Sequence record: OR896829.1
Reading direction: 5' to 3' (one strand)
Origin: Escherichia phage MatMar
Length of the DNA stretch: 50,761 nt
In this document: positions 6,184 through 47,868 of the stretch, one piece after another
How the letters are laid out: each line of letters begins with the position of its first letter
Position numbering within the stretch: position 1 is the stretch's first letter
Translations under genes and position numbers: made by a program
The notes under the pieces: generated by a model
Databases searched by the model: none
Told to the model about the DNA's origin: nothing
The model's input: only the letters and a program-made list of their open reading frames with translations

Positions 6184-6203
6184 TTTAACAAAAAGTGCTA
6201 TCA
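6184..6203 (-). repeat. 22-bp AAATAGCAC element, leftward orientation inside rightward late region
   Basis: + strand reads tttaacaaaaagtgctat; no good -10 on the - strand (TATTCA). Confidence 0.6.
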
Positions 6204-16133: not shown

Positions 16134-19100
16134 ATGGCTAAAAATATTATAACTGGCAGTAAGGGTGGGTCGAAAAAACCTTACGTGCCTAAAGAGCTTG
16201 AAGATAACCTGATTTCAATAAACAAAATTAAAATCCTGCTTGCCGTATCCGATGGTGAGTGTGACGCGGATTTCTCATTACGTGATCTGTATCTTGATGA
16301 TGTTCCGGTTATCGCTGACGACGGAACTGTAAACTACCCAGGCGTTAAAGCAGAGTTTAGGCCAGGAACGCAGGATCAGGAATACATTCAGGGTTTTACT
16401 GACACGTCAAACGAGGTAATCATCAATCGAGATTTGACTACAAATACGCCATATGTTTTGTCGGTAACGAATAAGACGCTTTCCGCAATACGCATCAAAA
16501 TGCTAATGCCAGTGGGTATTAAGCAGGAGGATAACGGCGACCTAGTGGGCGTTACCGTTACATATGCAGTTGATATGGCGGTTGATGGTGATTCATACAA
16601 AGAAGTAATGATCGACACCATTAACGGCAAGACGCGCACCGGATACGACCGTAGCCGACGCATTGACTTGCCGAAATTCAATGAGCGTGTTTTGCTTCGC
16701 GTTCGCCGCGTTACGCCTGACAGCACAACGTCGAAGGTTACAGACCTGATCCGCATACAGAGTTACGCCGAGGTAATTGATGCAAAATTCCGTTACCCTC
16801 TGACTGGGCTTGTTTACGTCGAGTTTGACAGCGAACTGTTCCCTAACCAGATCCCTAACATTTCAATTAAAAAGAAATGGAAGTTGATTCAGGTTCCCAG
16901 CAATTACGATCCTGTATCTCGTCGGTATTCTGGAACATGGGACGGAACATTTAAAAAAGCGTGGTCAAATAATCCGGCATGGGTTCTTTACGATTTGGTT
17001 ACTAATCAGCGTTATGGACTTGATCAACGAGAATTGGGAATACAGATCGACAAGTGGAGTCTATACGAGGCTGGGGTGTATTGTGATCAGATGGTTCCAG
17101 ATGGCAAGGGAGGAACAGAGCCGCGCTACCTATGCGATATGGTGATTCAAAGCCAGATTGAGGCTTATCAGCTTATTCGTGACATTTGCTCAATCTTCCG
17201 AGGAATGACTTTTTGGAATGGCGAGAGCTTGTCTGTAGTGGTGGATAAACCGCGCGAGCCATCATACATCTTTACAAACGACAACGTAATTAATGGAGAT
17301 TTTCAGTACACGAGCGCCAGCGAAAAGAGCATGTACACTCAATGCAACGTTACGTTTGACGATGAGCAAAACATGTATCAACAGGACGTTGAGGGCGTAT
17401 TTGACACTGAGGCGGCGTTACGTTTTGGCTACAATCCAACAAGTATCACGGCGATTGGTTGTACCCGTCGAAGCGAAGCGAATCGACGCGGACGCTGGAT
17501 ACTGAAAACCAACCTGCGCAGCCAAACGGTAAACTTTGCCACCGGGCTGGAAGGGATGATCCCATCTATCGGTGACGTTATCGCGATTTCTGATAACTTC
17601 CTGAGCAGCAACTTAACGCTCAACCTATCAGGGCGCGTAATGGAAGTTTCCGGCTTGCAGGTATTCGTTCCGTTTAAGATTGACGCTAGACCAGGTGATT
17701 TCATTATCATCAACAGACCGGACGGAAAACCAGTTAAGCGCACAATCTCAAAAGTCAGCGCGGACGGAAAAACCATTGAGTTAAACGTAGGGTTCGGATT
17801 CGACGTAAAACCGGACACCGTATTTGCAATCGACCGAACAGACCTTGCGTTGCAACAGTACGTTGTAACAGGAATCAGCAAGGGTGACACTGAGGAAGAA
17901 TTTACCTACTCGATTACGGCGGTTGAATACGATCCTAACAAATACGACGAAATTGATTATGGCGTAAACATTGATGATCGTCCGATCTCAATCGTGCAGC
18001 CGGACATCATGCAAGCACCGGAAAATGTTCAGGTGTCGTCATACTCCCGTGTTGTCCAGGGTGTTAGCGTTGAGACGATGGTTGTGTCGTGGGATAAAGT
18101 GCCTTATGCGTCACTGTATGAAATGCAATGGCGAAAAGGTGATGGCAACTGGCTAAATACGCCGCGCACAGCGAACAAAGAGACGGAAGTAGAAGGAATT
18201 TATTCAGGGAACTATCAAGTAAGGGTCAGATCTGTTTCAGCTTCCGGCAGTACATCAGCATGGTCGAAGATTGCAACAGCTTCCCTGACTGGTAAAGTTG
18301 GCGAGCCAGGCGCGCCAGTTAACTTAACCGCATCAGATAATGAAGTTTTCGGCATTCGTATTAAATGGGGCATGCCAGAAGGAAGCGGAGACACGGCCTA
18401 CATTGAGCTTCACCAATCGCCAGACGGAACGGTTGAAAACTCAAGCCTGTTAACGCTGATCCCATACCCGCAATATGAATACTGGCACAGTACACTACCA
18501 GCGGGTCAGGTTGTCTGGTATAGAATCCGCAGCGTTGACAGAATCGGCAACGTTTCTAGCTGGACTGATTTTGTTCGTGGCATGGCATCAGATGATGTTG
18601 AATCTGTTTTAGGAGATATTCTTGATAAGATTTTTGATAGCGAAGCAGGGCAAGAAATCAAGGAGAACGCCATCGAAAGCGCGAACAAGATCAAAGACCA
18701 GGCGCAGGCAATAATCCAGAACGCTTTGGCGATTGACGCTAACTTGAAATGGACGCGAGTACAGAACGGAAAGCGAAAGGCTGAATATGGTCATGCTGTT
18801 CAGTTGATCGCAAATGAGACTGAGGCGCGAGTAACTCAAATCGAAGAATTGAGGGCTTCAATTGATGGCGAGATAACATCAAGCATCAAGACAGTTCAGG
18901 AGGCAATCGCCACTGAATCAGAGACACGAGCAACTCAAATTCAGCAGCTTGATTCTAAATTCACGAAAGAAATCGACGGCGTGCGCAAGGATACTTCTGC
19001 AAGCATTAGCGATGTAAGGCAGACAATCACTAACGAGTCAGAAGCGCGAGCGCAAGCGGTACAACAGCTTGATGCAAAATTCACCAAAGAGATTAATGAT

Positions 19101-19712
19101 CTCAATGATGCAATCAAGGTTGACGTTGAGGCCAGCATTTCCGAAGTGAGACAAGCTATCGCCAACGAGGAGGAAGCACGAGTACAAGCTGATCAGGCAT
19201 TAACAGCACGATTTGGAGACGTTGAATCTGCATTGGTTGAAAAGTTGGATTCTTGGGCGAGCGTTGATTCAGTTGGCGCTAAGTACGCTATGAAATTGGG
19301 TCTTACTTACAATGGGCAGAAGTACAGCGCAGGAATGGTGATGCAGCTTTCGCAGGGTTCATCCGGCCTTATCTCGCAAATTTTGTTTGATGCTAACAGG
19401 TTCGCCATTATGACTAGCTCTACTGGAGGGGCTTTCACTTTGCCTTTCGTGGTTGAGAATAATCAGGTTTTCATTAATAGTCTTTTGGTGAAGAACGGAT
19501 CAATCACCAATGCTATGATCGGTAATGTTATTCAGTCAAACAACTTTGTTCAAAACCAGCAAGGATGGAGGCTTGATAAAAACGGAATATTTGAAAACTA
19601 CGGATCAACTCCAGGAGAAGGAGCCACTAAATTCACCAACGAAGGATTGAAGGTAAAAGATGCAAACGGAGTATTGAGGGTTGAAGTCGGAAGGATTACC
19701 GGAAGCTGGTAA
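16134..19712 (+). CDS. central tail fibre / host specificity protein (lambda gpJ-like)
   Basis: 1192 aa; last and largest gene of the M-L-K-I-J block; C-terminal region has repeated about 30-aa segments. Confidence 0.8.
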   Translation: MAKNIITGSKGGSKKPYVPKELEDNLISINKIKILLAVSDGECDADFSLRDLYLDDVPVIADDGTVNYPGVKAEFRPGTQDQEYIQGFTDTSNEVIINRDLTTNTPYVLSVTNKTLSAIRIKMLMPVGIKQEDNGDLVGVTVTYAVDMAVDGDSYKEVMIDTINGKTRTGYDRSRRIDLPKFNERVLLRVRRVTPDSTTSKVTDLIRIQSYAEVIDAKFRYPLTGLVYVEFDSELFPNQIPNISIKKKWKLIQVPSNYDPVSRRYSGTWDGTFKKAWSNNPAWVLYDLVTNQRYGLDQRELGIQIDKWSLYEAGVYCDQMVPDGKGGTEPRYLCDMVIQSQIEAYQLIRDICSIFRGMTFWNGESLSVVVDKPREPSYIFTNDNVINGDFQYTSASEKSMYTQCNVTFDDEQNMYQQDVEGVFDTEAALRFGYNPTSITAIGCTRRSEANRRGRWILKTNLRSQTVNFATGLEGMIPSIGDVIAISDNFLSSNLTLNLSGRVMEVSGLQVFVPFKIDARPGDFIIINRPDGKPVKRTISKVSADGKTIELNVGFGFDVKPDTVFAIDRTDLALQQYVVTGISKGDTEEEFTYSITAVEYDPNKYDEIDYGVNIDDRPISIVQPDIMQAPENVQVSSYSRVVQGVSVETMVVSWDKVPYASLYEMQWRKGDGNWLNTPRTANKETEVEGIYSGNYQVRVRSVSASGSTSAWSKIATASLTGKVGEPGAPVNLTASDNEVFGIRIKWGMPEGSGDTAYIELHQSPDGTVENSSLLTLIPYPQYEYWHSTLPAGQVVWYRIRSVDRIGNVSSWTDFVRGMASDDVESVLGDILDKIFDSEAGQEIKENAIESANKIKDQAQAIIQNALAIDANLKWTRVQNGKRKAEYGHAVQLIANETEARVTQIEELRASIDGEITSSIKTVQEAIATESETRATQIQQLDSKFTKEIDGVRKDTSASISDVRQTITNESEARAQAVQQLDAKFTKEINDLNDAIKVDVEASISEVRQAIANEEEARVQADQALTARFGDVESALVEKLDSWASVDSVGAKYAMKLGLTYNGQKYSAGMVMQLSQGSSGLISQILFDANRFAIMTSSTGGAFTLPFVVENNQVFINSLLVKNGSITNAMIGNVIQSNNFVQNQQGWRLDKNGIFENYGSTPGEGATKFTNEGLKVKDANGVLRVEVGRITGSW

Positions 19713-19740
19713 AAAAGGGGGCATAGCCCCCTTTAATTTT
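19711..19740. terminator. bidirectional terminator-like hairpin between convergent genes
   Basis: aaaaaagggggcatagccccctttaatttt. Confidence 0.6.
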
Positions 19741-20356
19741 AATCATAGTGTGATGCATTTATAACCAAAACAGACGAGGCTGTGTAAATACCAACTGGGC
19801 CAGGAGTTTGTGCAACTTGCCTAGAGAAAGAATATACACCGTTGCCATACGCAGCAGCCTGAGATTCAAATATCATGAATCCACCTAAAGCCGGATTAGG
19901 AACAGAGTTTAATGCTGTCAGTGATGGCATTATGGCGCAAGGATAGCCCAGGTTAACATCAAATGCGATCCCGCTTACGCCTACTTGCTTTGCATCTAGC
20001 GGCCTCATTTTTCCATGATAAACCATTTCACCATGAGCATTATAAAACGCTATGCCGTGACTACCTGGGGGAGTCACCATATTACTAAAAGCATAAACAA
20101 TAACCTCACCCTGATTATCAGATCTATCAAGTCTTATTGCGTGCCTTCCACCATTGTTAAATTGCGTGAATGATATGTATGATTTAGCAGTCAATCTAAC
20201 AAAGAAAAAACACACCCTATCAATAGGAATTGACGAAGTAAAAACTGTTCCGGTATTAGCAGATATAACTGCCCGATCAATTAGATTAACCGGAGTGAAA
20301 TCTGGGCTTAACCATAATGATCCGTCTGATTTTTTTATGCTCATCCCGTACATCAT
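19739..20356 (-). CDS. hypothetical protein
   Basis: 205 aa from ATG at 20356; start overlaps stop of upstream gene. Confidence 0.45.
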   Translation of the reverse strand: MMYGMSIKKSDGSLWLSPDFTPVNLIDRAVISANTGTVFTSSIPIDRVCFFFVRLTAKSYISFTQFNNGGRHAIRLDRSDNQGEVIVYAFSNMVTPPGSHGIAFYNAHGEMVYHGKMRPLDAKQVGVSGIAFDVNLGYPCAIMPSLTALNSVPNPALGGFMIFESQAAAYGNGVYSFSRQVAQTPGPVGIYTASSVLVINASHYD

Positions 20357-20634
20357 CACCCCCAAAAAGTATATATATATCTTGAATCAGATCCAGAAAG
20401 CCCACTCCATGTAACGGTGTCGCCACTTACCGATAAGTTTGGTGCGCCAGGGTCGCCACCACGCCAGGAATTCATGCCAACATATATTGCTTTCAATGAT
20501 TTACCTGGCGGCCTGTTTTGGTAAGTCTTGCTACCTGATGGCTGAGTGAATTTATCAAGAAAGAAAACAGGCGTTAAAAGTCCTGTAACTTCCCTTCCTC
20601 GATCGTCATATATTGCATAACCATATTGCGCCAT
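20356..20634 (-). CDS. hypothetical protein
   Basis: 92 aa ORF, translationally coupled in 3-gene leftward operon. Confidence 0.45.
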   Translation of the reverse strand: MAQYGYAIYDDRGREVTGLLTPVFFLDKFTQPSGSKTYQNRPPGKSLKAIYVGMNSWRGGDPGAPNLSVSGDTVTWSGLSGSDSRYIYTFWG

Positions 20635-20903
20635 TAATTACACCTCAAATCAATAAATTTACTTTCATTTTGCCAGCGGTTGATAAATTTAACTTCTTTA
20701 TTGTCAACGCTCAACCTGTATTGCTTTTGGCTGAATCTGTTTTCGCGTACTGCATTAATTTTGACTTCATGGAATCCGTTAACAGGGAATGTTTTAACGT
20801 TAAATTTTGCCGTGCAATCGATCTTTTTGAAGCTGCCAGTAGGCGACGCTGCGCATCCGGTCAGAGCGGCTACGGTGGCGATAACTGCGATTAATTTTTT
20901 CAT
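20634..20903 (-). CDS. lipoprotein, possible superinfection exclusion protein
   Basis: 89 aa; signal peptide with lipobox LTGC; located next to tail genes where receptor-blocking exclusion lipoproteins of related phages sit; AGGAGA RBS. Confidence 0.5.
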   Translation of the reverse strand: MKKLIAVIATVAALTGCAASPTGSFKKIDCTAKFNVKTFPVNGFHEVKINAVRENRFSQKQYRLSVDNKEVKFINRWQNESKFIDLRCN

Positions 20904-20934
20904 CTTTGTATCTCCTTAGTTGTTGTTGTTTCCA

Positions 20935-20979
20935 ACTATACAAGATCTTGAACATCGAGTTTAGCAAAAAGTGCTATTT
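20935..20979 (-). promoter_or_regulatory. AAATAGCAC module (TTGCTA variant) with TATAGT box 21 bp downstream, upstream of lipoprotein operon
   Basis: - strand reads aaatagcactttttgctaaac N21 tatagt then RBS and ATG 20903. Confidence 0.45.
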
Positions 20980-21358
20980 GTTTTTTCTGTTCTCGCTTGT
21001 TATCAAATTCACACCTCCTTAATTTTAGCGCAAAACTTAAACACAAATTGGACAAACAATAGACAGTAAAATCATCTATATACATAAAAAATAAAGAGTT
21101 TATTTATCTATGTATCTATATTTGTTTTTATTTGTTCTCTGTGTTTCATTGGGTTGTGGTGTGTAGCATGTTTGGTGAGTGTATTGATTTATGTAATTAC
21201 AGATGCTCACTGGGTATTGCATATGTATGTATAAAGCTGAGCAGATACGCGAACGCGAGAACAGAAAAATAACAACCTTGATATTCAATCACTTATAATA
21301 TGATTTTGTTCTTAAGCTCAAAAGAAGCGTTTAGAAAACAGAAAAAACAAATCACCTA

Positions 21359-23729: not shown

Positions 23730-24423
23730 AGTCTAACGTGGTTGGTTTGTTTACCAGTGCCGCTACAACCGCTTTTAGCTCGTCAATTTCTTTTCTCATC
23801 TCCTCATTTTCCGCTTTCAGATTCTTGACGTGGTGAATCAGTGGAACAGTGAGGCGGTCATACATAACGCCTTCCGCCACCATGCCATTACTTGAAGCAA
23901 TGGCAGGATCTTCTCCTTCTTGCAGCGGTCGCCAGTGAACGTACTCCGGCGCAACCTCTCCAACTTCCTCTGCAATCAGTCCGTACCATCCCCAATCTTT
24001 ACGGTCGCTTTCACAAGTTGACCGATACCACACAGGACGCATTTCAAGCATCAGATCCGCATATTCATCAATAACCGATTCTACGCTGCGCTTATAACGA
24101 GAAGAGGAAGTGGAGCGTAAAACTTGCGACACTCCAGCATTTGGATCAAGCCATAAGTTTGCTGATTGAGCGGTTGTGTTAAGATTAAATAAATAAAATG
24201 CATCGTTACCAGTTAGGGGGTAAAAACTCCCACCATACCTTCCGCTACCCAACTCGGATGATAGATCAGTTTGTTTTAGATACGGTTTCAATTTATTTTC
24301 AACATCAGTAGTTGATGCTTTTCCGGCAACATCCTGTTTTAGTGTCGAAACATCCTGATTTATCGTAGAAACATCATTTTTTAGCTTCGTTATATCACTA
24401 GGTATAACAGTTACTGTAGCCAT
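23728..24423 (-). CDS. putative tail fibre-associated protein (coiled-coil N- and C-termini)
   Basis: 231 aa downstream of the side tail fibre gene on the same strand. Confidence 0.35.
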   Translation of the reverse strand: MATVTVIPSDITKLKNDVSTINQDVSTLKQDVAGKASTTDVENKLKPYLKQTDLSSELGSGRYGGSFYPLTGNDAFYLFNLNTTAQSANLWLDPNAGVSQVLRSTSSSRYKRSVESVIDEYADLMLEMRPVWYRSTCESDRKDWGWYGLIAEEVGEVAPEYVHWRPLQEGEDPAIASSNGMVAEGVMYDRLTVPLIHHVKNLKAENEEMRKEIDELKAVVAALVNKPTTLD

Positions 24424-24435
24424 TTTCCTAACTCC

Positions 24436-24714
24436 TTAAGCCCATTCTCTAATAGGCTGATCTAACTCAACCACGTAGTCGTTAAAAATTACGGCATCAA
24501 ACTTATCATCAATGATTCGCACATTGACGAAATAGCCGTCGTTCTTTCTCGCAACCTCCTCGCCATCGTCAGTGACCGAAATTACCTTATATGTGTATCC
24601 AATTACATCAATCATGATTGCGTTTTGAAGTTCATCATTATCATGCCATTCTATTTCGTCCAGAAAGGCGGAAAACTCCGCCTTGTCTGCAAATTTAAGT
24701 GTTAAATCTTTCAT
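24436..24714 (-). CDS. hypothetical protein (possible fibre assembly factor)
   Basis: 92 aa acidic protein between the two fibre-related genes. Confidence 0.4.
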   Translation of the reverse strand: MKDLTLKFADKAEFSAFLDEIEWHDNDELQNAIMIDVIGYTYKVISVTDDGEEVARKNDGYFVNVRIIDDKFDAVIFNDYVVELDQPIREWA

Positions 24715-26702
24715 TAAACAATCTCCCCCATTTGATGATCTGTTAATGCTTTATGCCAGATTCTGAAGTTTCTAACGTGCCCGAAAAGGTGTCTCTCTCC
24801 AGTGTTTGTTTGTCCGCCAATCCTTATGGTCGCAGTAGATACAACGTGACTATAAGTTGCCTTTGCTGAAGATGATAGAACAGCGTTACAAAGTGCTTGC
24901 GTATCTCCATTTTCACCACATCTAAATCCAGCGATAAATTTTCTACTTGTTGTTTTTACATATTTATTGATTCTTCCTGATCCGTCTCCTATATCCACAT
25001 AAGGAGATCCAGTATCAACAGCCGAACCACCTCGCAAACCGTGAATTATCGCTTGCCCTTCCTTTTGCCCAGTGAAATCCATAATTCTCGGAGCTGCATT
25101 AGGTGGAGAGTCCCACTCCCAATTACGATGAACCTCACTCATTACCGTTAGCGGAAGATTGTAGATATTGTTTTTTATTGGGAGAGTTACAAGATCGCTT
25201 GCCCGTGTTACTGGATTTGCTTCTGTAATTATGAAAGAAGAAGCACAAGACCCTCCCTCAACTTGCGGAGTTGCAATATAAATGTAATCGTCGGCAGTGG
25301 TTGCAGCCCCCTTTTCAGGTGCATATTGCACCATTGCACCAATCATGCTTTCCTGTTCTAATGCTGTGATCGTGGCCTCAAAAAATATCCATTTGCTTGA
25401 TTCATCTCTTACTGCTCTTGCTGTTATCCTGTTTGCAGCACCGCCTGTTTTTTCTATTGACAAGTCCTCAAGTCCGAGATAAGCATCACCCAAAAAGGTA
25501 TATCCACTATCATTATAATTTTCAAATCTAAGCCTGCACCTTATGTTTCCTTTACCTCCCTTTACTCTGCATGAGATTGTTACTCTTTTTTCTTCACCAG
25601 TAACATCAAAACCCTTACTACCAGATACTGTAACTATGTTAATAGCCGATGTTTGCCCTACCATTTCTGGCTTCAATGTAAACTTGCCAAATGAAAAACC
25701 GAAATCATCAACTCCTGATTGGTTTAATACCATGTTTGATGACTTGTTCCATTTTGAAGGATTGGTGCTATTTATAAGAAGGTTTGTTCTTTGCCCCTCG
25801 ATGAGAAGACCATCCTTTTCAAATCTAGGTTCATCAATAGCAGCATTAGTAAGCACGCCAGACTTATTAATGTAAGTAGCGGTTGATGCTCGTTTAAATT
25901 TAACAATCTTGTCGCCTGGCATTGTGATCTCATCATCACCTATGACAATCTTTTTGTATGACGGCGAGAATCCCGTAATCATATCAAGCGAATCATTAAA
26001 CGGTATCCACACGTCAGGCAATGGTTGCAATAAATCTTTGTAAGGTTCTGCCGCCTGCTTTGCGTATTCCTCCGCTTTATCTCGCGCACTTTCAGCGCCT
26101 GCCTTTGCGGTGTTCGCAGCATCACGCGCGGATTCAGCGCCAGACTTTGCTGCTTCAGCGCCAGTCTTTGCAGTGTTTGCAGCGTCGCGCGCGGATTCAG
26201 CGGCAGCCTTTGCAGTATCAGCGCCTTTCTTGCTATTCGCTGCATTTGTTGCGCTTGTCTTCGCGTTATTCTCGCTGGTTTTAGCTGCCTGCTGGCTTGC
26301 TGCTGCTGCGTCAGCATTTGTCTTTACGTCTTCTTGGATCTTCTGTAGCTTATCCCAATCAAAATCCTTGATGATCTCAATAAATCCAGCAAGCTCCGAC
26401 TCTTTCCCCATGTAGTAGCGCAATGTTTCCGCTACGTCTTGCGCCAGGCCATCAACAGTTAACGAGTCATGAAGCAAGATTATGTAGTCTGAACGGGGAA
26501 CAACAGCACCACCAGTGGTGATTGCTCGAATGCTAGTATCGTTGACCACTTCGGTGATAACTGCGGCCTGTAGCGGCTGAGTCAGAAAAATAATGGTTGC
26601 GCCGGAACGGATCAGCGTTAACTGCTCACGCCAGTTCGTCCCGTAGCCAGTTATATAGCCTTGAGCGTCCATTGACGCTTGACCTTTGCGATAAATTGCC
26701 AT
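24714..26702 (-). CDS. side tail fibre protein
   Basis: 662 aa from ATG at 26702 with AGGAGA RBS (ORF track starts at GTG 26726); tandem Ala/Lys-rich repeats AESARDAANTAK x3; lectin/jelly-roll-like C-terminal half. Confidence 0.65.
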   Translation of the reverse strand: MAIYRKGQASMDAQGYITGYGTNWREQLTLIRSGATIIFLTQPLQAAVITEVVNDTSIRAITTGGAVVPRSDYIILLHDSLTVDGLAQDVAETLRYYMGKESELAGFIEIIKDFDWDKLQKIQEDVKTNADAAAASQQAAKTSENNAKTSATNAANSKKGADTAKAAAESARDAANTAKTGAEAAKSGAESARDAANTAKAGAESARDKAEEYAKQAAEPYKDLLQPLPDVWIPFNDSLDMITGFSPSYKKIVIGDDEITMPGDKIVKFKRASTATYINKSGVLTNAAIDEPRFEKDGLLIEGQRTNLLINSTNPSKWNKSSNMVLNQSGVDDFGFSFGKFTLKPEMVGQTSAINIVTVSGSKGFDVTGEEKRVTISCRVKGGKGNIRCRLRFENYNDSGYTFLGDAYLGLEDLSIEKTGGAANRITARAVRDESSKWIFFEATITALEQESMIGAMVQYAPEKGAATTADDYIYIATPQVEGGSCASSFIITEANPVTRASDLVTLPIKNNIYNLPLTVMSEVHRNWEWDSPPNAAPRIMDFTGQKEGQAIIHGLRGGSAVDTGSPYVDIGDGSGRINKYVKTTSRKFIAGFRCGENGDTQALCNAVLSSSAKATYSHVVSTATIRIGGQTNTGERHLFGHVRNFRIWHKALTDHQMGEIV

Positions 26703-26718
26703 CTGTAATTTTCTCCTG

Positions 26719-26738
26719 TATAGCACTTTTTGCTAATG
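26719..26738 (+). repeat. AAATAGCAC element (TTGCTA variant) abutting tail-fibre RBS, oriented opposite to the gene
   Basis: + strand reads tatagcactttttgctaatg; no -10-like box at N22. Confidence 0.55.
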
Positions 26739-26775
26739 ACAACATTGAGAATAGCAGTTTTGCAGGCAAAAAAAA

Positions 26776-26792
26776 ACCCCGCGTAGCGGGGT
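26776..26792 (-). terminator. terminator hairpin serving the leftward primase transcript
   Basis: accccgcgtagcggggt flanked by an A-run on + strand (U-run on - strand). Confidence 0.5.
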
Positions 26793-26831
26793 AAGCATAA
26801 AGGAAGTGATAACGATGGATTCTCGCTAATC

Positions 26832-27794
26832 TTATAAAAGCGATTCAGGCTTGTAAAGTTTTTTCTCAATGCCATTTTTGAAGTTTCCACCAATCGGCAG
26901 CATAACATCAAGGTTTCTTTCATCGGCGGCGATTATTACATCCCGATCATCTTTATGGCATACGACGCGCATCTTTCGATTTCCTTTGTATCTGTGGGCA
27001 ACCATCTCAAGATTGTAGTTATTGTAGCACGTCCATACTTCTTGCCCCGTCGCAAGGTGCACATGCTGAGCATTTACCCAGTCAGTGCACAAATAGATCG
27101 TCTTATCTGTGCTACCAGTTACAACAACCGATCCGCGCGTGTAATCCTTTGCCAGAAATGATTTATCGCCTTCCTCGGTGATAAAGAGAATATTGCACAT
27201 CTCATCATCCACGCCGTCTTCGTGAACAAGTCGGCACGGAAGCGCGTGAATGTATCGCCCATCCTTAACGCCGCAATCGTAATGACCATCATCAGGCGGG
27301 TAGATTCCTTCAAATACGCTTAAAGGAGTGCGATCAAATTTAAGCGTCTTTGCCATTACTCTTTCACAGCATTCATGGCTGGCCTGCTTCCCGAAATTGT
27401 AGCCGGACGAGCGCGACGCTATCTTGTTAGCCTTTGCCACCACCTCGACCGGAACGAGATTGAGCCAGTCGCCCAGCGTGTTAATTGCTTCGCTATAGCT
27501 TTCCCCGCGCAATCGCATAAACAACCCGATCCCGCTATCGTTACCGCATACGTTGCAGATATTGCCGCCATCACCTTTCTTTGCGAGTTGGTTAGTCCAA
27601 CGAGCGCGATCTTTGCCACCACAATACAGGCACGGTTGATGCTTGCCATTAAAGAAAGATTGAGGCGCATTGCATAGTTTCATTAATGCAGTTTGCCACA
27701 TTCCAAGCATACGCGGTAAAACTTCGTCTTTGTCGTAGTGCATTGTAAACCTCATACAAGAAAAAGCCTGGCAATGATAAACCACGCCAGGCAA
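26832..27794 (-). CDS. DNA primase (zinc-ribbon type)
   Basis: 320 aa; HQPCLYCGGKDRARW ... NICNVCG zinc-binding motif typical of primase zinc-binding domains. Confidence 0.55.
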   Translation of the reverse strand: MPGVVYHCQAFSCMRFTMHYDKDEVLPRMLGMWQTALMKLCNAPQSFFNGKHQPCLYCGGKDRARWTNQLAKKGDGGNICNVCGNDSGIGLFMRLRGESYSEAINTLGDWLNLVPVEVVAKANKIASRSSGYNFGKQASHECCERVMAKTLKFDRTPLSVFEGIYPPDDGHYDCGVKDGRYIHALPCRLVHEDGVDDEMCNILFITEEGDKSFLAKDYTRGSVVVTGSTDKTIYLCTDWVNAQHVHLATGQEVWTCYNNYNLEMVAHRYKGNRKMRVVCHKDDRDVIIAADERNLDVMLPIGGNFKNGIEKKLYKPESLL

Positions 27795-28287: not shown

Positions 28288-28330
28288 ATAGCACTTTTTG
28301 TTAAAAATAGCTTTTGAACGTGTGTATTAT
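28288..28330 (+). promoter_or_regulatory. AAATAGCAC module with TATTAT box 21 bp downstream, upstream of helicase gene
   Basis: atagcactttttgttaaaa N21 tattat acacgcc. Confidence 0.45.
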
Positions 28331-31586: not shown

Positions 31587-31844
31587 ATGCAAAAAGAAAG
31601 AAGCGTTTATTTAAATGAGTGTGGCGAATGGTTGCTTTATCGCGCTATGGTTTGCGATGCGCTTGATAAAAACCCTAACGTGAAAAAGATGATTGATTGC
31701 GATCCGTGGGAATTTTCAAGCGCATTGGATATGAGCTTTGAGGAGACAAAAAAACTCCCGCTTGAAAAATGGCATGAACAGATCAGAAATGACATGCAAG
31801 AATTTGTCGATTCGTGGAATTTTCAGCACGGAATGATCCACTAA
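31587..31844 (+). CDS. hypothetical protein
   Basis: 85 aa ORF. Confidence 0.45.
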   Translation: MQKERSVYLNECGEWLLYRAMVCDALDKNPNVKKMIDCDPWEFSSALDMSFEETKKLPLEKWHEQIRNDMQEFVDSWNFQHGMIH

Positions 31845-31887
31845 CAGCACTTTTTGTTAAAACGCCCGGCATTTTGTCGGGCATAAT
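31842..31887 (+). promoter_or_regulatory. AAATAGCAC module (CAGCAC variant), hairpin spacer, CATAAT at N22
   Basis: taacagcactttttgttaaaac gcccggcattttgtcggg cataat. Confidence 0.5.
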
Positions 31888-38043: not shown

Positions 38044-38089
38044 ATTATGCCCGACTCAAGGTCGGGCGTTTTAACAAAAAGTGCTATTT
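38044..38089 (-). promoter_or_regulatory. AAATAGCAC module, hairpin spacer, CATAAT at N22
   Basis: - strand: aaatagcactttttgttaaaac gcccgaccttgagtcggg cataat. Confidence 0.5.
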
Positions 38090-44892: not shown

Positions 44893-45050
44893 CTTGGTTG
44901 CTTTTAATCTTTGTCACAAGTTACAACTCCGCAGCTATTGAGTCGCAGGAGTTCCACGGCGAATCAAGATGCCAGGAAGCGCGAAAGCAAGTTGTTCTCA
45001 ACATGTCAGATAGTGGGAAGGATGTAACAGCGTTATGCGTTCGTAAATAG
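44889..45050 (+). CDS. hypothetical small protein (53 aa) with hydrophobic N-terminus
   Basis: ATGA overlap with upstream gene; stop TAG embedded in the 22-bp element; not in ORF track. Confidence 0.35.
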   Translation: MTWLLLIFVTSYNSAAIESQEFHGESRCQEARKQVVLNMSDSGKDVTALCVRK

Positions 45051-45090
45051 CACTTTTTGTTAAAGCATTCCATCGGGCTTGCTTTATAGT
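45045..45090 (+). promoter_or_regulatory. AAATAGCAC module, hairpin spacer, TATAGT at N22
   Basis: aaatagcactttttgttaaagc N20 tatagt. Confidence 0.45.
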
Positions 45091-47531: not shown

Positions 47532-47828
47532 ATGAAAATGGCAACTATGCGCAAAATGCTTATCAATGGCTTTGAAAGAGAAATTCGCCGTCGAGGCTGG
47601 GATGATTCTAAAAATTCACCTTACACTATCAATCGCGGAGAGTATAAATCAGTTCGACATTTTGCACGATGCCTGGCTGGATGCTACGACCTTGAGCACC
47701 CTTTCCCGTTCATGAACGAAACGCTAACCGAAATGATGGAAGAGGCCGCAACTCAAGATCGCCCACTGACGCAACATGATTTTGATGAGTTTGCGCACTG
47801 GGAAATCGAATGTGCGCTATATAAATAG
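47532..47828 (+). CDS. hypothetical protein
   Basis: 98 aa; alternative ATG at 47538 has better RBS spacing. Confidence 0.45.
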   Translation: MKMATMRKMLINGFEREIRRRGWDDSKNSPYTINRGEYKSVRHFARCLAGCYDLEHPFPFMNETLTEMMEEAATQDRPLTQHDFDEFAHWEIECALYK

Positions 47829-47868
47829 CACTTTTTGTTAAAACCAGCTTCGGCTGGTTTTGTATTAT
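47823..47868 (+). promoter_or_regulatory. AAATAGCAC module, hairpin spacer, TATTAT at N22
   Basis: aaatagcactttttgttaaaac cagcttcggctggttttg tattat atgcgcatcg. Confidence 0.5.

What the first reader, a model, noticed from the sequence alone, without database searches (positions are those of the whole stretch)
19739..20979. Leftward three-gene operon beside the tail genes: lipoprotein plus two unknowns
Convergent with the J-like gene is a compact operon with its own box and TATAGT: an 89-aa lipoprotein (lipobox LTGC), a 92-aa protein and a 205-aa protein, all translationally coupled. In T1-like and lambdoid phages a small lipoprotein at this position blocks the phage receptor to exclude superinfection; the two co-transcribed partners here have no motif I recognise. 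The trio could be an exclusion or defence cassette larger than the usual single lipoprotein.
Basis: inference. Interest (0 to 1): 0.45.

Follow-up and report, generated by a model that had tools for sequence, protein, structure and literature searches.

The report
T1-like phage receptor-binding and exclusion cassette
The three genes are real and form one operon, but they are the already described host-recognition cassette of T1-like phages: most likely a two-part tail-tip protein that binds the E. coli vitamin B12 transporter BtuB, plus a small lipoprotein thought to block that receptor, not an enlarged defence system.

Summary
Three translationally coupled minus-strand genes (89-aa lipoprotein, 92 aa, 204/205 aa) lie convergent with the J-like gene. 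They sit between a genome-wide repeated promoter box and a shared hairpin terminator.

The window is a Warwickvirus (Drexlerviridae), 97.6% identical to phage WaterSpirit here. This is the published "receptor-specificity locus downstream of gpJ". Close relatives were shown by RB-TnSeq to need BtuB, and the gene in the position of the 205-aa protein is listed there as the receptor-binding protein (RBP).

My tests agree:
- The 92-aa protein is found fused to the N-terminus of the RBP domain in other phages.
- Neither protein has a signal peptide or membrane segment.
- The pair occurs without any lipoprotein in JenP1 and Stx phages.

The lipoprotein is not a demonstrable Cor member, because its mature part hits nothing. 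It does share position, lipobox and cysteine layout with Cor, Llp and Rtp45, so superinfection exclusion is a reasonable inference.

Verdict: already known, low interest.

The parts
20962..20977 (-). Promoter-associated box ATAGCACTTTTTGCTA, one of 17 copies in the genome
   Evidence: 17 matches against 0.65 expected; the same box-to-(-10) architecture recurs at the other copies; the box is conserved upstream of the trio in SECphi27 and NBSal001.
20935..20940 (-). -10-like hexamer TATAGT, 21 nt downstream of the box
   Evidence: Not called by the generic sigma-70 scan, because the distance to the TTGCTA inside the box is 21 nt.
20634..20903 (-). 89-aa outer-membrane-type lipoprotein, the putative BtuB-directed superinfection-exclusion protein. 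Signal peptide is residues 1-16, lipobox LTG|C, with Ala at +2. Cys30 and Cys88 are invariant.
20356..20634 (-). 92-aa partner protein of the PHROG 557 family (T1 gp32 / N15 gp22). Probably the tail-proximal subunit, adaptor or assembly partner of the RBP.
   Evidence: phrog_557, 1.6e-20. T1 ST32 is in the same PHROG, and the N-termini of 2 of the 3 ~315-aa fusion proteins tested also hit phrog_557; full-length alignment with the fusion N-termini; no hydrophobic segment; dN/dS 0.09-0.17.
19739..20356 (-). 204/205-aa receptor-binding protein of the PHROG 425 family (T1 gp31 / N15 gp23), BtuB-type allele. Homologues start at the second ATG (20353).
19714..19734 (.). Bidirectional intrinsic terminator hairpin shared by the J gene and the leftward operon
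   Evidence: plus-strand call. (the minus strand reads GGGGGCTATGCCCCC followed by T6); hairpins of different sequence at the same position in NBSal001, PTXU06 and RTP.
19533..19712 (+). C-terminal ~60 residues of the J-like central fibre (...VKDANGVLRVEVGRITGSW), the probable docking site for the 92/205-aa pair
   Evidence: this tip is 55-68% identical in T1, JenP1 and PTXU06, which all carry the split 557+425 pair, even where the rest of J is 19-38% identical. It is only 32% identical in RTP, which has the single-chain RBP. The preprint 10.64898/2026.04.02.716166 also flags the J tip as specificity-associated.

Best explanation
This is the host-recognition cassette of a T1-like (Warwickvirus) phage.

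- **205-aa protein.** It is the terminal receptor-binding protein. It is carried non-covalently at the tip of the trimeric J-like central fibre and binds the extracellular face of the TonB-dependent vitamin B12 transporter BtuB, which commits the phage to DNA injection.
- **92-aa protein.** It is the RBP's dedicated partner. It is most likely the tail-proximal subunit or adaptor that couples the RBP to the conserved J tip, or else an assembly factor. In other phages the two are a single ~315-aa polypeptide.
- **89-aa protein.** It is made as a Lol-sorted outer-membrane lipoprotein facing the periplasm. By analogy with Llp-FhuA and Rtp45-LptD, it binds the periplasmic side of the same receptor and makes it unusable. 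This would block superinfection and stop progeny being wasted on cell debris.

The three genes are transcribed from one phage promoter and translated as a coupled unit. They move between phages as a block, in either orientation relative to J.

**Shown here:** gene structure, family membership, fold and profile homology of the 205-aa protein to a validated RBP, gene fusion of the two partners, and absence of membrane segments.

**Taken from the literature:** BtuB dependence of near-identical phages.

**Inferred:** virion location of the 92-aa and 205-aa proteins, the role of the 92-aa protein, and exclusion by the lipoprotein.
For: - **Identity and context.** The region is 97.6% identical to Warwickvirus WaterSpirit. 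There are 67 phage records with a match (65 covering at least 80% of the query), all from Escherichia or Shigella phages and, where the taxonomy was read, Warwickvirus (Drexlerviridae).
- **Receptor.** RB-TnSeq gives btuB as the top gene for WaterSpirit. BtuB is the listed receptor for MatMar (50,761 bp, the window's length), JK16, Bas04 and others, with 'CDS_0022' named as the RBP. The AF3 model of the MatMar RBP with BtuB has ipTM 0.74. In WaterSpirit numbering J is CDS0021 and the 205-aa gene is CDS0022.
- **Family.** The 205-aa protein hits phrog_425 and the 92-aa protein hits phrog_557. T1 gp31 and gp32, next to J and cor, hit the same two families.
- **Profile homology.** An alignment of 86 family members compared with 9 Rtp44-family members gives probability 90.8% and E 1.2e-6 over 106 columns.
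- **Architecture.** Phage RTP has J followed by a convergent rtp45 (lipoprotein) and rtp44 (RBP) with a 1-nt overlap, the same layout as here. Rtp45 and the Oekolampad RBP (33% identical to Rtp44) are cryo-EM-validated; Rtp44 itself could not be expressed.
- **Fusion.** About a dozen ~315-aa proteins combine a 557-like N-terminus with a 425-like C-terminus. They lie beside J in Pantoea, Yersinia and Pectobacterium phages.
- **Independence from the lipoprotein.** The pair occurs without a lipoprotein in JenP1 and next to tail-fibre genes in Stx phages. In SaltyDalty the trio directly follows J on the same strand.
- **J tip.** The C-terminal tip of J co-varies with the presence of the split pair.
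- **Not membrane proteins.** Neither the 92-aa nor the 205-aa protein has a signal peptide or TM-strength segment.
- **Lipoprotein.** It has a lipobox, no Asp at +2, and invariant Cys30 and Cys88 laid out as in T1 Cor (Cys25, Cys73). Among the phage records listed, it is found where the nearest RBP alleles are found and is missing from JenP1 and the Stx phage examined.
Against: - No experiment on this phage shows the 92-aa or 205-aa protein in virions. The T1 cryo-EM structure did not resolve the J C-terminus, so its gp31 and gp32 were not seen.
- A narrow 13-sequence profile, or a single Rtp44 sequence, gave only weak scores.
- The 92-aa family shows no detectable similarity to the N-terminus of single-chain RBPs, so its adaptor role is unproven.
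- A 2026 paper (PMC13164509) reads the homologous T1 genes as accessories of Cor.
- That MatMar's CDS_0022 is the 205-aa gene is inferred from WaterSpirit's numbering, not read from the record.
Confidence: 0.8

Rival explanations
1. Extended superinfection-exclusion cassette. All three proteins work together in the infected cell to block or remodel the receptor. This is the first reader's idea, and also the reading of the homologous T1 and KanT1 genes in PMC13164509.
For: The three genes are co-transcribed and translationally coupled, and they travel together. [quoted passage not shown] The KanT1 authors found no fold hits and assumed a role in exclusion.
Against: - Neither partner has a signal peptide or TM segment, so neither can reach the envelope by known routes.
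- The 205-aa protein is homologous to a validated virion RBP.
- The pair exists without any lipoprotein in JenP1 and Stx phages.
- In T1 the pair is transcribed with the tail genes while cor is on the other strand.
- The J tip co-varies with the pair.
- AF3 docks the protein on the extracellular face of BtuB in the literature.
Confidence: 0.06
2. The 205-aa protein is the RBP, but the 92-aa protein is only a folding or attachment chaperone, like tail-fibre assembly proteins, and is absent from the mature virion.
For: Small proteins encoded beside fibre-tip genes are often chaperones (established knowledge for Tfa and gp38-type proteins). The 92-aa family has no detectable similarity to any part of the single-chain Rtp44-type RBPs. 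The literature calls such neighbours 'accessory proteins' without assigning them a role.
Against: Natural fusions place the 92-aa-like domain permanently at the N-terminus of the RBP domain, which suits a structural subunit better than a released chaperone. It is more conserved than the lipoprotein (75% against 53% identity to NBSal001). Its first ~35 residues share a motif with the N-terminus of the RBP, though the support is weak (hhalign probability 30%).
Confidence: 0.2
3. The lipoprotein is not an exclusion factor. It would have another envelope role, for example helping lysis, or protecting released virions only indirectly.
For: There is no sequence homology to Cor, Llp or Rtp45 beyond the signal peptide. 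The fold match to Llp is at background level. The protein is coupled to late-type structural genes rather than being separately expressed early, as T5 llp is.
Against: - The position and gene order match rtp45-rtp44, where exclusion is structurally shown.
- The cysteine layout matches Cor and Llp.
- Among the records listed it accompanies the nearest RBP alleles, which suggests it is matched to the same receptor.
- The spanin and lysis genes lie elsewhere, around 34-35 kb.
Confidence: 0.12

Closest known systems
Phage RTP rtp45-rtp44 and the Oekolampad (Bas18) LptD-specific RBP/exclusion locus (bioRxiv 10.1101/2025.07.07.663478; PDB 9rpt)
   Different: - The receptor is LptD, not BtuB.
- The RBP is one ~310-aa chain (PHROG 1265) rather than 92 + 205 aa (PHROGs 557 + 425).
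- The lipoproteins are unrelated in sequence (PHROG 4281, against no PHROG for the mature protein here).
- The J tip differs (32% identity).
Phage T1 gp32-gp31-Cor, equivalent to N15 gp22-gp23-Cor; also in phi80, HK022 and ES18
   Same: The same two partner families are present (PHROGs 557 and 425). The position directly after J is the same, a small lipoprotein lies next to the pair, and the J C-terminal tip is conserved (68% identity).
   Different: - The receptor is FhuA.
- The pair is co-directional with J and cor is on the opposite strand. Here the pair is inverted and placed behind the lipoprotein in one operon.
- The RBP is only ~20-24% identical.
- The lipoprotein here is not a Cor-family member by sequence.
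Phage T5 pb5/Llp and phage BF23 Hrs/Llp
   Same: The logic is the same: a dedicated RBP at the tip of a central fibre, paired with a small periplasm-facing lipoprotein that inactivates the same TonB-dependent transporter. BF23 does this for BtuB.
BASEL 'bona fide RBP locus downstream of gpJ', BtuB allele (PMC8594841; bioRxiv 10.64898/2026.04.02.716166)
   Same: This is that locus. The Warwickvirus relatives Bas04, JK16, WaterSpirit and MatMar are listed there with BtuB as receptor and the gene after J as the RBP.
   Different: The preprint calls the FhuA, BtuB, LptD and YncD RBP families 'unrelated'. The tests here indicate that the first three share a common core.

Membership tests
Small-siphovirus receptor-specificity locus downstream of gpJ (BASEL 'bona fide RBP locus') | Lies directly downstream of the lambda-J-like central fibre gene | tested here: met
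   The J-like ORF is 16134-19712 (+). The trio is 19739-20903 (-), separated from J only by a 26-nt terminator region.
Small-siphovirus receptor-specificity locus downstream of gpJ (BASEL 'bona fide RBP locus') | The allele correlates with an experimentally determined terminal receptor | tested here: met
   The locus is 94-98% identical in phages listed as BtuB-dependent (RB-TnSeq hits for btuB were read for WaterSpirit): WaterSpirit, JK16, Bas04/FritzSarasin and MartyMcPhage. The receptor of this exact genome was not assayed here.
Small-siphovirus receptor-specificity locus downstream of gpJ (BASEL 'bona fide RBP locus') | The encoded RBP sits on the virion and binds the receptor | not testable with these tools
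   Supported only indirectly, by homology to 9rpt_C and by published AF3 models.
PHROG 425 (T1 gp31 / N15 gp23, annotated 'membrane associated protein') | Full-length profile match | tested here: met
   The 205-aa protein scores 8.9e-50 over residues 1-205 against profile positions 2-224 of 224. T1 ST31 scores 9.3e-68 against the same profile.
PHROG 557 (T1 gp32 / N15 gp22, annotated 'outer membrane protein') | Full-length profile match | tested here: met
   The 92-aa protein scores 1.6e-20 over residues 3-92. T1 ST32 scores 1.9e-31 and JenP1 gp22 scores 1.7e-27.
Membrane or outer-membrane proteins (as the database names imply) | A signal peptide, a transmembrane helix or a beta-barrel signature | tested here: not met
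   The maximum Kyte-Doolittle 19-residue hydropathy is 0.55 for the 92-aa protein and 1.28 for the 205-aa protein. Neither has an N-terminal signal sequence. The model is a soluble all-beta sandwich. There are no Pfam hits.
Rtp44 / Oekolampad-type LptD RBPs (PHROG 1265) | Sequence-profile membership | tested here: not met
   The phrog_1265 match is only E 0.0085 over 40 residues. HMM and PDB sequence searches find nothing. The protein is a remote homologue, not a member.
Rtp44 / Oekolampad-type LptD RBPs (PHROG 1265) | Shared fold of the receptor-binding core | tested here: met
Cor superinfection-exclusion lipoproteins (PHROG 1119) | Profile match of the mature protein | tested here: not met
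   The full-length hit of 9.9e-8 vanishes when the signal peptide is removed. BLAST against T1 Cor aligns residues 1-21 only. The family HMM against T1 Cor scores 18.7 bits.
Cor / Llp / Rtp45-type exclusion lipoproteins (functional class) | Lipobox; outer-membrane sorting signal; size below 100 aa; a conserved cysteine pair; encoded next to the RBP | tested here: met
   The lipobox is LTG|C with Ala at +2. Cys30 and Cys88 are invariant in 13 sequences. T1 Cor has Cys25 and Cys73 in a matching layout. The gene overlaps the first RBP gene.
Cor / Llp / Rtp45-type exclusion lipoproteins (functional class) | Binds the periplasmic face of the receptor and abolishes adsorption | not testable with these tools
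T5 pb5-type RBPs | Sequence or fold similarity to pb5 | tested here: not met

The most novel reading that the evidence does not exclude
The FhuA-type (T1 gp31), BtuB-type (this protein) and LptD-type (Rtp44/Oekolampad) receptor-binding proteins of small siphoviruses were recently described as unrelated families. They may instead be one ancient superfamily with a conserved beta-sandwich core. In this reading the 92-aa protein is a detachable J-docking subunit, free here and in T1 but fused in Pantoea, Yersinia and Pectobacterium phages. The same two-gene module also serves short-tailed Stx-converting phages, so a single exchangeable adhesin system would span siphoviruses and podoviruses.
Probability: 0.5. 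Interest if true: 0.4.

Novelty: already known. Interest (0 to 1): 0.25.

Why it matters
The locus decides which outer-membrane protein the phage uses, so it determines host range, routes to resistance and options for phage engineering. That is already recognised: the cassette type, its BtuB specificity and the RBP gene have been published for this genus.

The analysis here has two uses. First, it corrects database names that mislead readers ('outer membrane protein', 'membrane associated protein', 'Cor'). Second, it helps settle a live disagreement in the literature, RBP module versus 'extended cor cassette', in favour of the RBP reading. It does so with a fold match and a profile match to a cryo-EM-validated RBP, and with natural gene fusions.

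Experimental proof for the BtuB allele is still missing, in particular the role of the 92-aa protein and exclusion by the lipoprotein.

Tried and rejected
- **Pfam.** Nothing for the 92-aa or 205-aa proteins. The lipoprotein had only a sub-threshold lipid-attachment-site hit and a DUF6491 hit.
- **PDB sequence searches.** Single sequences, and 13- and 86-sequence profiles, gave no meaningful hit.
- **Direct BLAST of the three proteins against T1 gp31, gp32 and Cor.** Marginal, or signal peptide only.
- **The 92-aa protein as the split-off N-terminal domain of single-chain LptD-type RBPs.** No support from hhalign, so this is kept only as a possibility.
- **The lipoprotein as a Cor or Llp homologue.** Sequence says no and fold comparison is inconclusive. 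It also shows no similarity to the lipoproteins of T5-like BtuB phages in a tblastn search.
- **Inferring expression timing from the promoter box.** Rejected, because the box precedes both structural and replication genes.
- **The 49-aa and 62-aa ORFs upstream of the trio (annotated in WaterSpirit).** Not counted as operon members. The 49-aa ORF overlaps the promoter box and its stop codon lies inside TATAGT. This was not tested further.
Full report
**1. What is there**

The minus strand of 19739-20903 carries three ORFs:
- an 89-aa protein, MKKLIAVIATVAALTG|C..., at 20634-20903
- a 92-aa protein at 20356-20634
- a 205-aa protein at 19739-20356. Database homologues begin one codon later (MYGM..., 204 aa).

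The stop and start codons overlap by one base at both junctions (TAATG and TGATG). Each start has a purine-rich ribosome-binding site.

Upstream lies ATAGCACTTTTTGCTA (20962-20977). This is one of 17 copies of a box found across the genome, against 0.65 expected by chance. At nearly all copies a -10-like hexamer follows 21-22 nt downstream, here TATAGT at 20935-20940.

A G+C-rich hairpin at 19714-19734 lies between the converging J gene (16134-19712) and the operon and can terminate both. Relatives carry a hairpin of different sequence at the same place.

The trio is conserved in the same order at 44-75% amino-acid identity in a Tlsvirus (NBSal001), a Dhillonvirus (PTXU06) and the 36.9-kb phage SaltyDalty. 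pN is far below pS. These are real genes under purifying selection.

**2. Where the window comes from**

The region is 97.6% identical to Escherichia phage WaterSpirit and 94% identical to SECphi27, tonn, tunus and JK16, which are Warwickviruses of the Drexlerviridae, the T1-like phages.

The window starts at the large terminase gene, as WaterSpirit does. Its length of 50,761 bp equals that listed for the Warwickvirus 'MatMar' in the supplement of bioRxiv 10.64898/2026.04.02.716166. I treat that identification as probable, not proven.

**3. What the literature already says**

Maffei et al. [quoted passage not shown] The alleles match the terminal receptor (FhuA, BtuB, YncD, LptD and others), and the loci are accompanied by cognate exclusion proteins.

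The 2026 preprint confirms this with RB-TnSeq across 255 phages:
- btuB is the top gene for WaterSpirit.
- BtuB is the receptor listed for MatMar, JK16, Bas04 and other Warwickviruses.
- 'CDS_0022' is named as the RBP.
- The AF3 model of the MatMar RBP with BtuB has ipTM 0.74.

In WaterSpirit's numbering J is CDS0021 and the 205-aa gene is CDS0022.

For the LptD allele, cryo-EM showed two things. The Oekolampad RBP binds the extracellular face of LptDE. The Rtp45 lipoprotein binds the periplasmic side and prevents RBP binding.

A 2026 paper on phage KanT1 (PMC13164509) takes a different view. It found no fold hits for the T1 homologues of the two partner genes and assumed they assist Cor in exclusion.

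**4. Tests of the two 'unknown' proteins**

*Families.* The 205-aa protein matches PHROG 425 (8.9e-50) and the 92-aa protein matches PHROG 557 (1.6e-20). T1 gp31 and gp32, the two genes between J and cor in T1, match the same profiles. The database names 'membrane associated protein' and 'outer membrane protein' are unsupported: neither protein has a signal peptide or a TM-strength hydrophobic segment, and Pfam finds nothing.

Foldseek did not recover this hit, so I sought independent evidence. I compared an 86-sequence alignment of the PHROG-425 family, drawn from an exhaustive HMM search, with a 9-sequence alignment of the Rtp44 family. hhalign gave 90.8% probability and E 1.2e-6 over 106 columns, centred on a shared motif (Y-x-F-S...G-I-x-x-Y-N-x-x-G...P-L). 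Narrower comparisons were weak.

I conclude that the 205-aa protein is a remote homologue of an experimentally validated RBP. The FhuA-, BtuB- and LptD-type RBPs share a common core, although the preprint calls them unrelated.

*The 92-aa protein.* The exhaustive search also returned about a dozen ~315-aa proteins whose C-terminal ~210 residues match the 205-aa family. Their N-terminal ~95 residues align end to end with the 92-aa family, and 2 of the 3 tested hit PHROG 557. These fusions are encoded beside J in Pantoea phage Vid5, Yersinia phage P400 and Pectobacterium phages. A natural fusion argues that the two proteins act as one physical unit.

I could not show that the 92-aa protein corresponds to the N-terminal part of single-chain Rtp44-type RBPs. 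A shared N-terminal motif (M-x-Y-G-x-x-I-x-D-x-x-G) between the 92-aa and 205-aa families has only weak support (hhalign probability 30%).

**5. Context tests**

- Phage RTP has the same layout as this window: J, then a convergent operon of lipoprotein (rtp45) followed by the RBP (rtp44), with a one-base overlap. The difference is that here the RBP function is split over two ORFs.
- In T1 the pair follows J on the same strand and cor is on the other strand.
- In SaltyDalty the whole trio follows J on the same strand.
- In JenP1 the pair converges on J with no lipoprotein.
- In the short-tailed Stx phage PA28 the pair follows the tail-fibre genes and precedes lom.

So the pair is tied to tail-tip genes and does not depend on the lipoprotein.

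The last 60 residues of J are 55-68% identical among phages that carry the split pair (T1, JenP1, PTXU06), even where the rest of J is 19-38% identical. The figure is 32% in RTP. This fits docking of the pair on the J tip, as the preprint also suggests. The T1 cryo-EM structure did not resolve this part of J, so there is still no direct view.

**6. The lipoprotein**

It has a canonical lipobox and Ala at +2. Under the established '+2 rule' that implies sorting to the outer membrane.

Its match to the Cor PHROG (9.9e-8) comes from the signal peptide. The mature sequence hits no PHROG, BLAST against T1 Cor aligns residues 1-21 only, and a family HMM scores T1 Cor at 18.7 bits. It is therefore not a Cor member by sequence.

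It does share several features with the class:
- small size
- an invariant cysteine pair (Cys30 and Cys88), laid out like Cys25 and Cys73 of T1 Cor. Llp also has a disulphide, noted in PMC9586334.
- a position adjoining the RBP genes

It occurs in 91 phage records. Those listed also carry the nearest alleles of the 205-aa protein, down to about 45% identity, and it evolves faster than the RBP. BF23, a T5-like phage, is known to have an unrelated lipoprotein that blocks BtuB. Exclusion via BtuB is therefore the best inference, but it is untested.

**7. Verdict**

The lipoprotein is a plausible exclusion factor, though not Cor-like by sequence.

The system is already described for this genus, so novelty and interest are low. 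Three things are modestly new:
- the fold and profile link between the PHROG-425 RBPs and the validated LptD-type RBP
- the natural 557+425 fusions
- the co-variation of the J tip with the pair

Together these argue against the 'extended cor cassette' reading in recent literature.

Noticed in passing
window, 17 sites, e.g. 6186-6201(-), 20962-20977(-), 26720-26735(+), 28288-28303(+), 31844-31859(+), 38072-38087(-), 45047-45062(+), 47825-47840(+): A repeated box, ATAGCACTTTTTG(T/C)TA, is present 17 times against 0.65 expected. It contains the imperfect palindrome TAGCA-N5-TG(T/C)TA. A -10-like hexamer (CATAAT, TATAAT, TATAGT or TACATT) usually follows 21-22 nt downstream. It precedes both structural and replication genes. 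It looks like the phage's own promoter or regulator-binding motif, at a spacing that does not fit a standard -35/-10 pair.
   Followed up: partly
L004 (Stx phage PA28) 6855-7621; other Stx1/Stx2-converting phages: Short-tailed Stx-converting phages (Traversvirus) carry a 44%-identical homologue of the 205-aa protein together with a 557-like gene. The pair lies between the tail-fibre genes and lom. The 557-like ORF is annotated as only 47 aa in PA28 and may be mis-started. The pair's role in these podoviruses is unknown.
   Followed up: partly
P0063, P0070, P0074, P0091, P0094, P0101, P0103, P0105, P0116, P0129, P0131; phage records: These ~315-aa proteins are natural fusions of a 92-aa-like N-terminal domain and a 205-aa-like C-terminal domain. 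They are encoded beside J in Pantoea phage Vid5, Yersinia phage P400 and several Pectobacterium phages.
   Followed up: yes
window 19533-19712 (J C-terminus) compared with L003, L005, L006, L008: The last ~60 residues of J (...GWRLDKNG...VKDxNGxLRVxIGRITGSW) are conserved among phages that carry the split RBP pair, whatever the receptor (FhuA or BtuB). They diverge in RTP, which has a single-chain RBP. The tip contains hairpin-like D-x-N-G motifs that resemble the N-termini of the 92-aa and 205-aa proteins.
   Followed up: partly
window 20936-21085(-) and 21100-21288(-): A 49-aa ORF and a 62-aa ORF (TTG start) are annotated as genes in WaterSpirit. The 49-aa ORF covers the promoter box, and its stop codon lies inside the TATAGT hexamer. 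They are probably not genes.
   Followed up: no
MG065643, MG065657 and MG065681 ('Campylobacter phage' E6, C4, A139; 49,946 bp): Records labelled as Campylobacter jejuni phages carry the same trio (64% and 51% identity) and have T1-like genome size. The host label looks doubtful.
   Followed up: no
L017 196-1230 and L018 202-1233 (Kuravirus podophages HC-25922 and ES17): Distant Rtp44-family homologues (22-25% identity, annotated 'membrane protein') sit next to a tail-fibre gene in Kuravirus podophages. The RBP superfamily therefore extends beyond siphoviruses.
   Followed up: no
window about 24030-26980(-) (WaterSpirit CDS0031-0033): A second adhesin locus lies on the minus strand. It has a lateral tail-fibre gene, a 92-aa ORF and a protein annotated 'chaperone of endosialidase' in SECphi27. 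It is separate from the J-proximal cassette.
   Followed up: no
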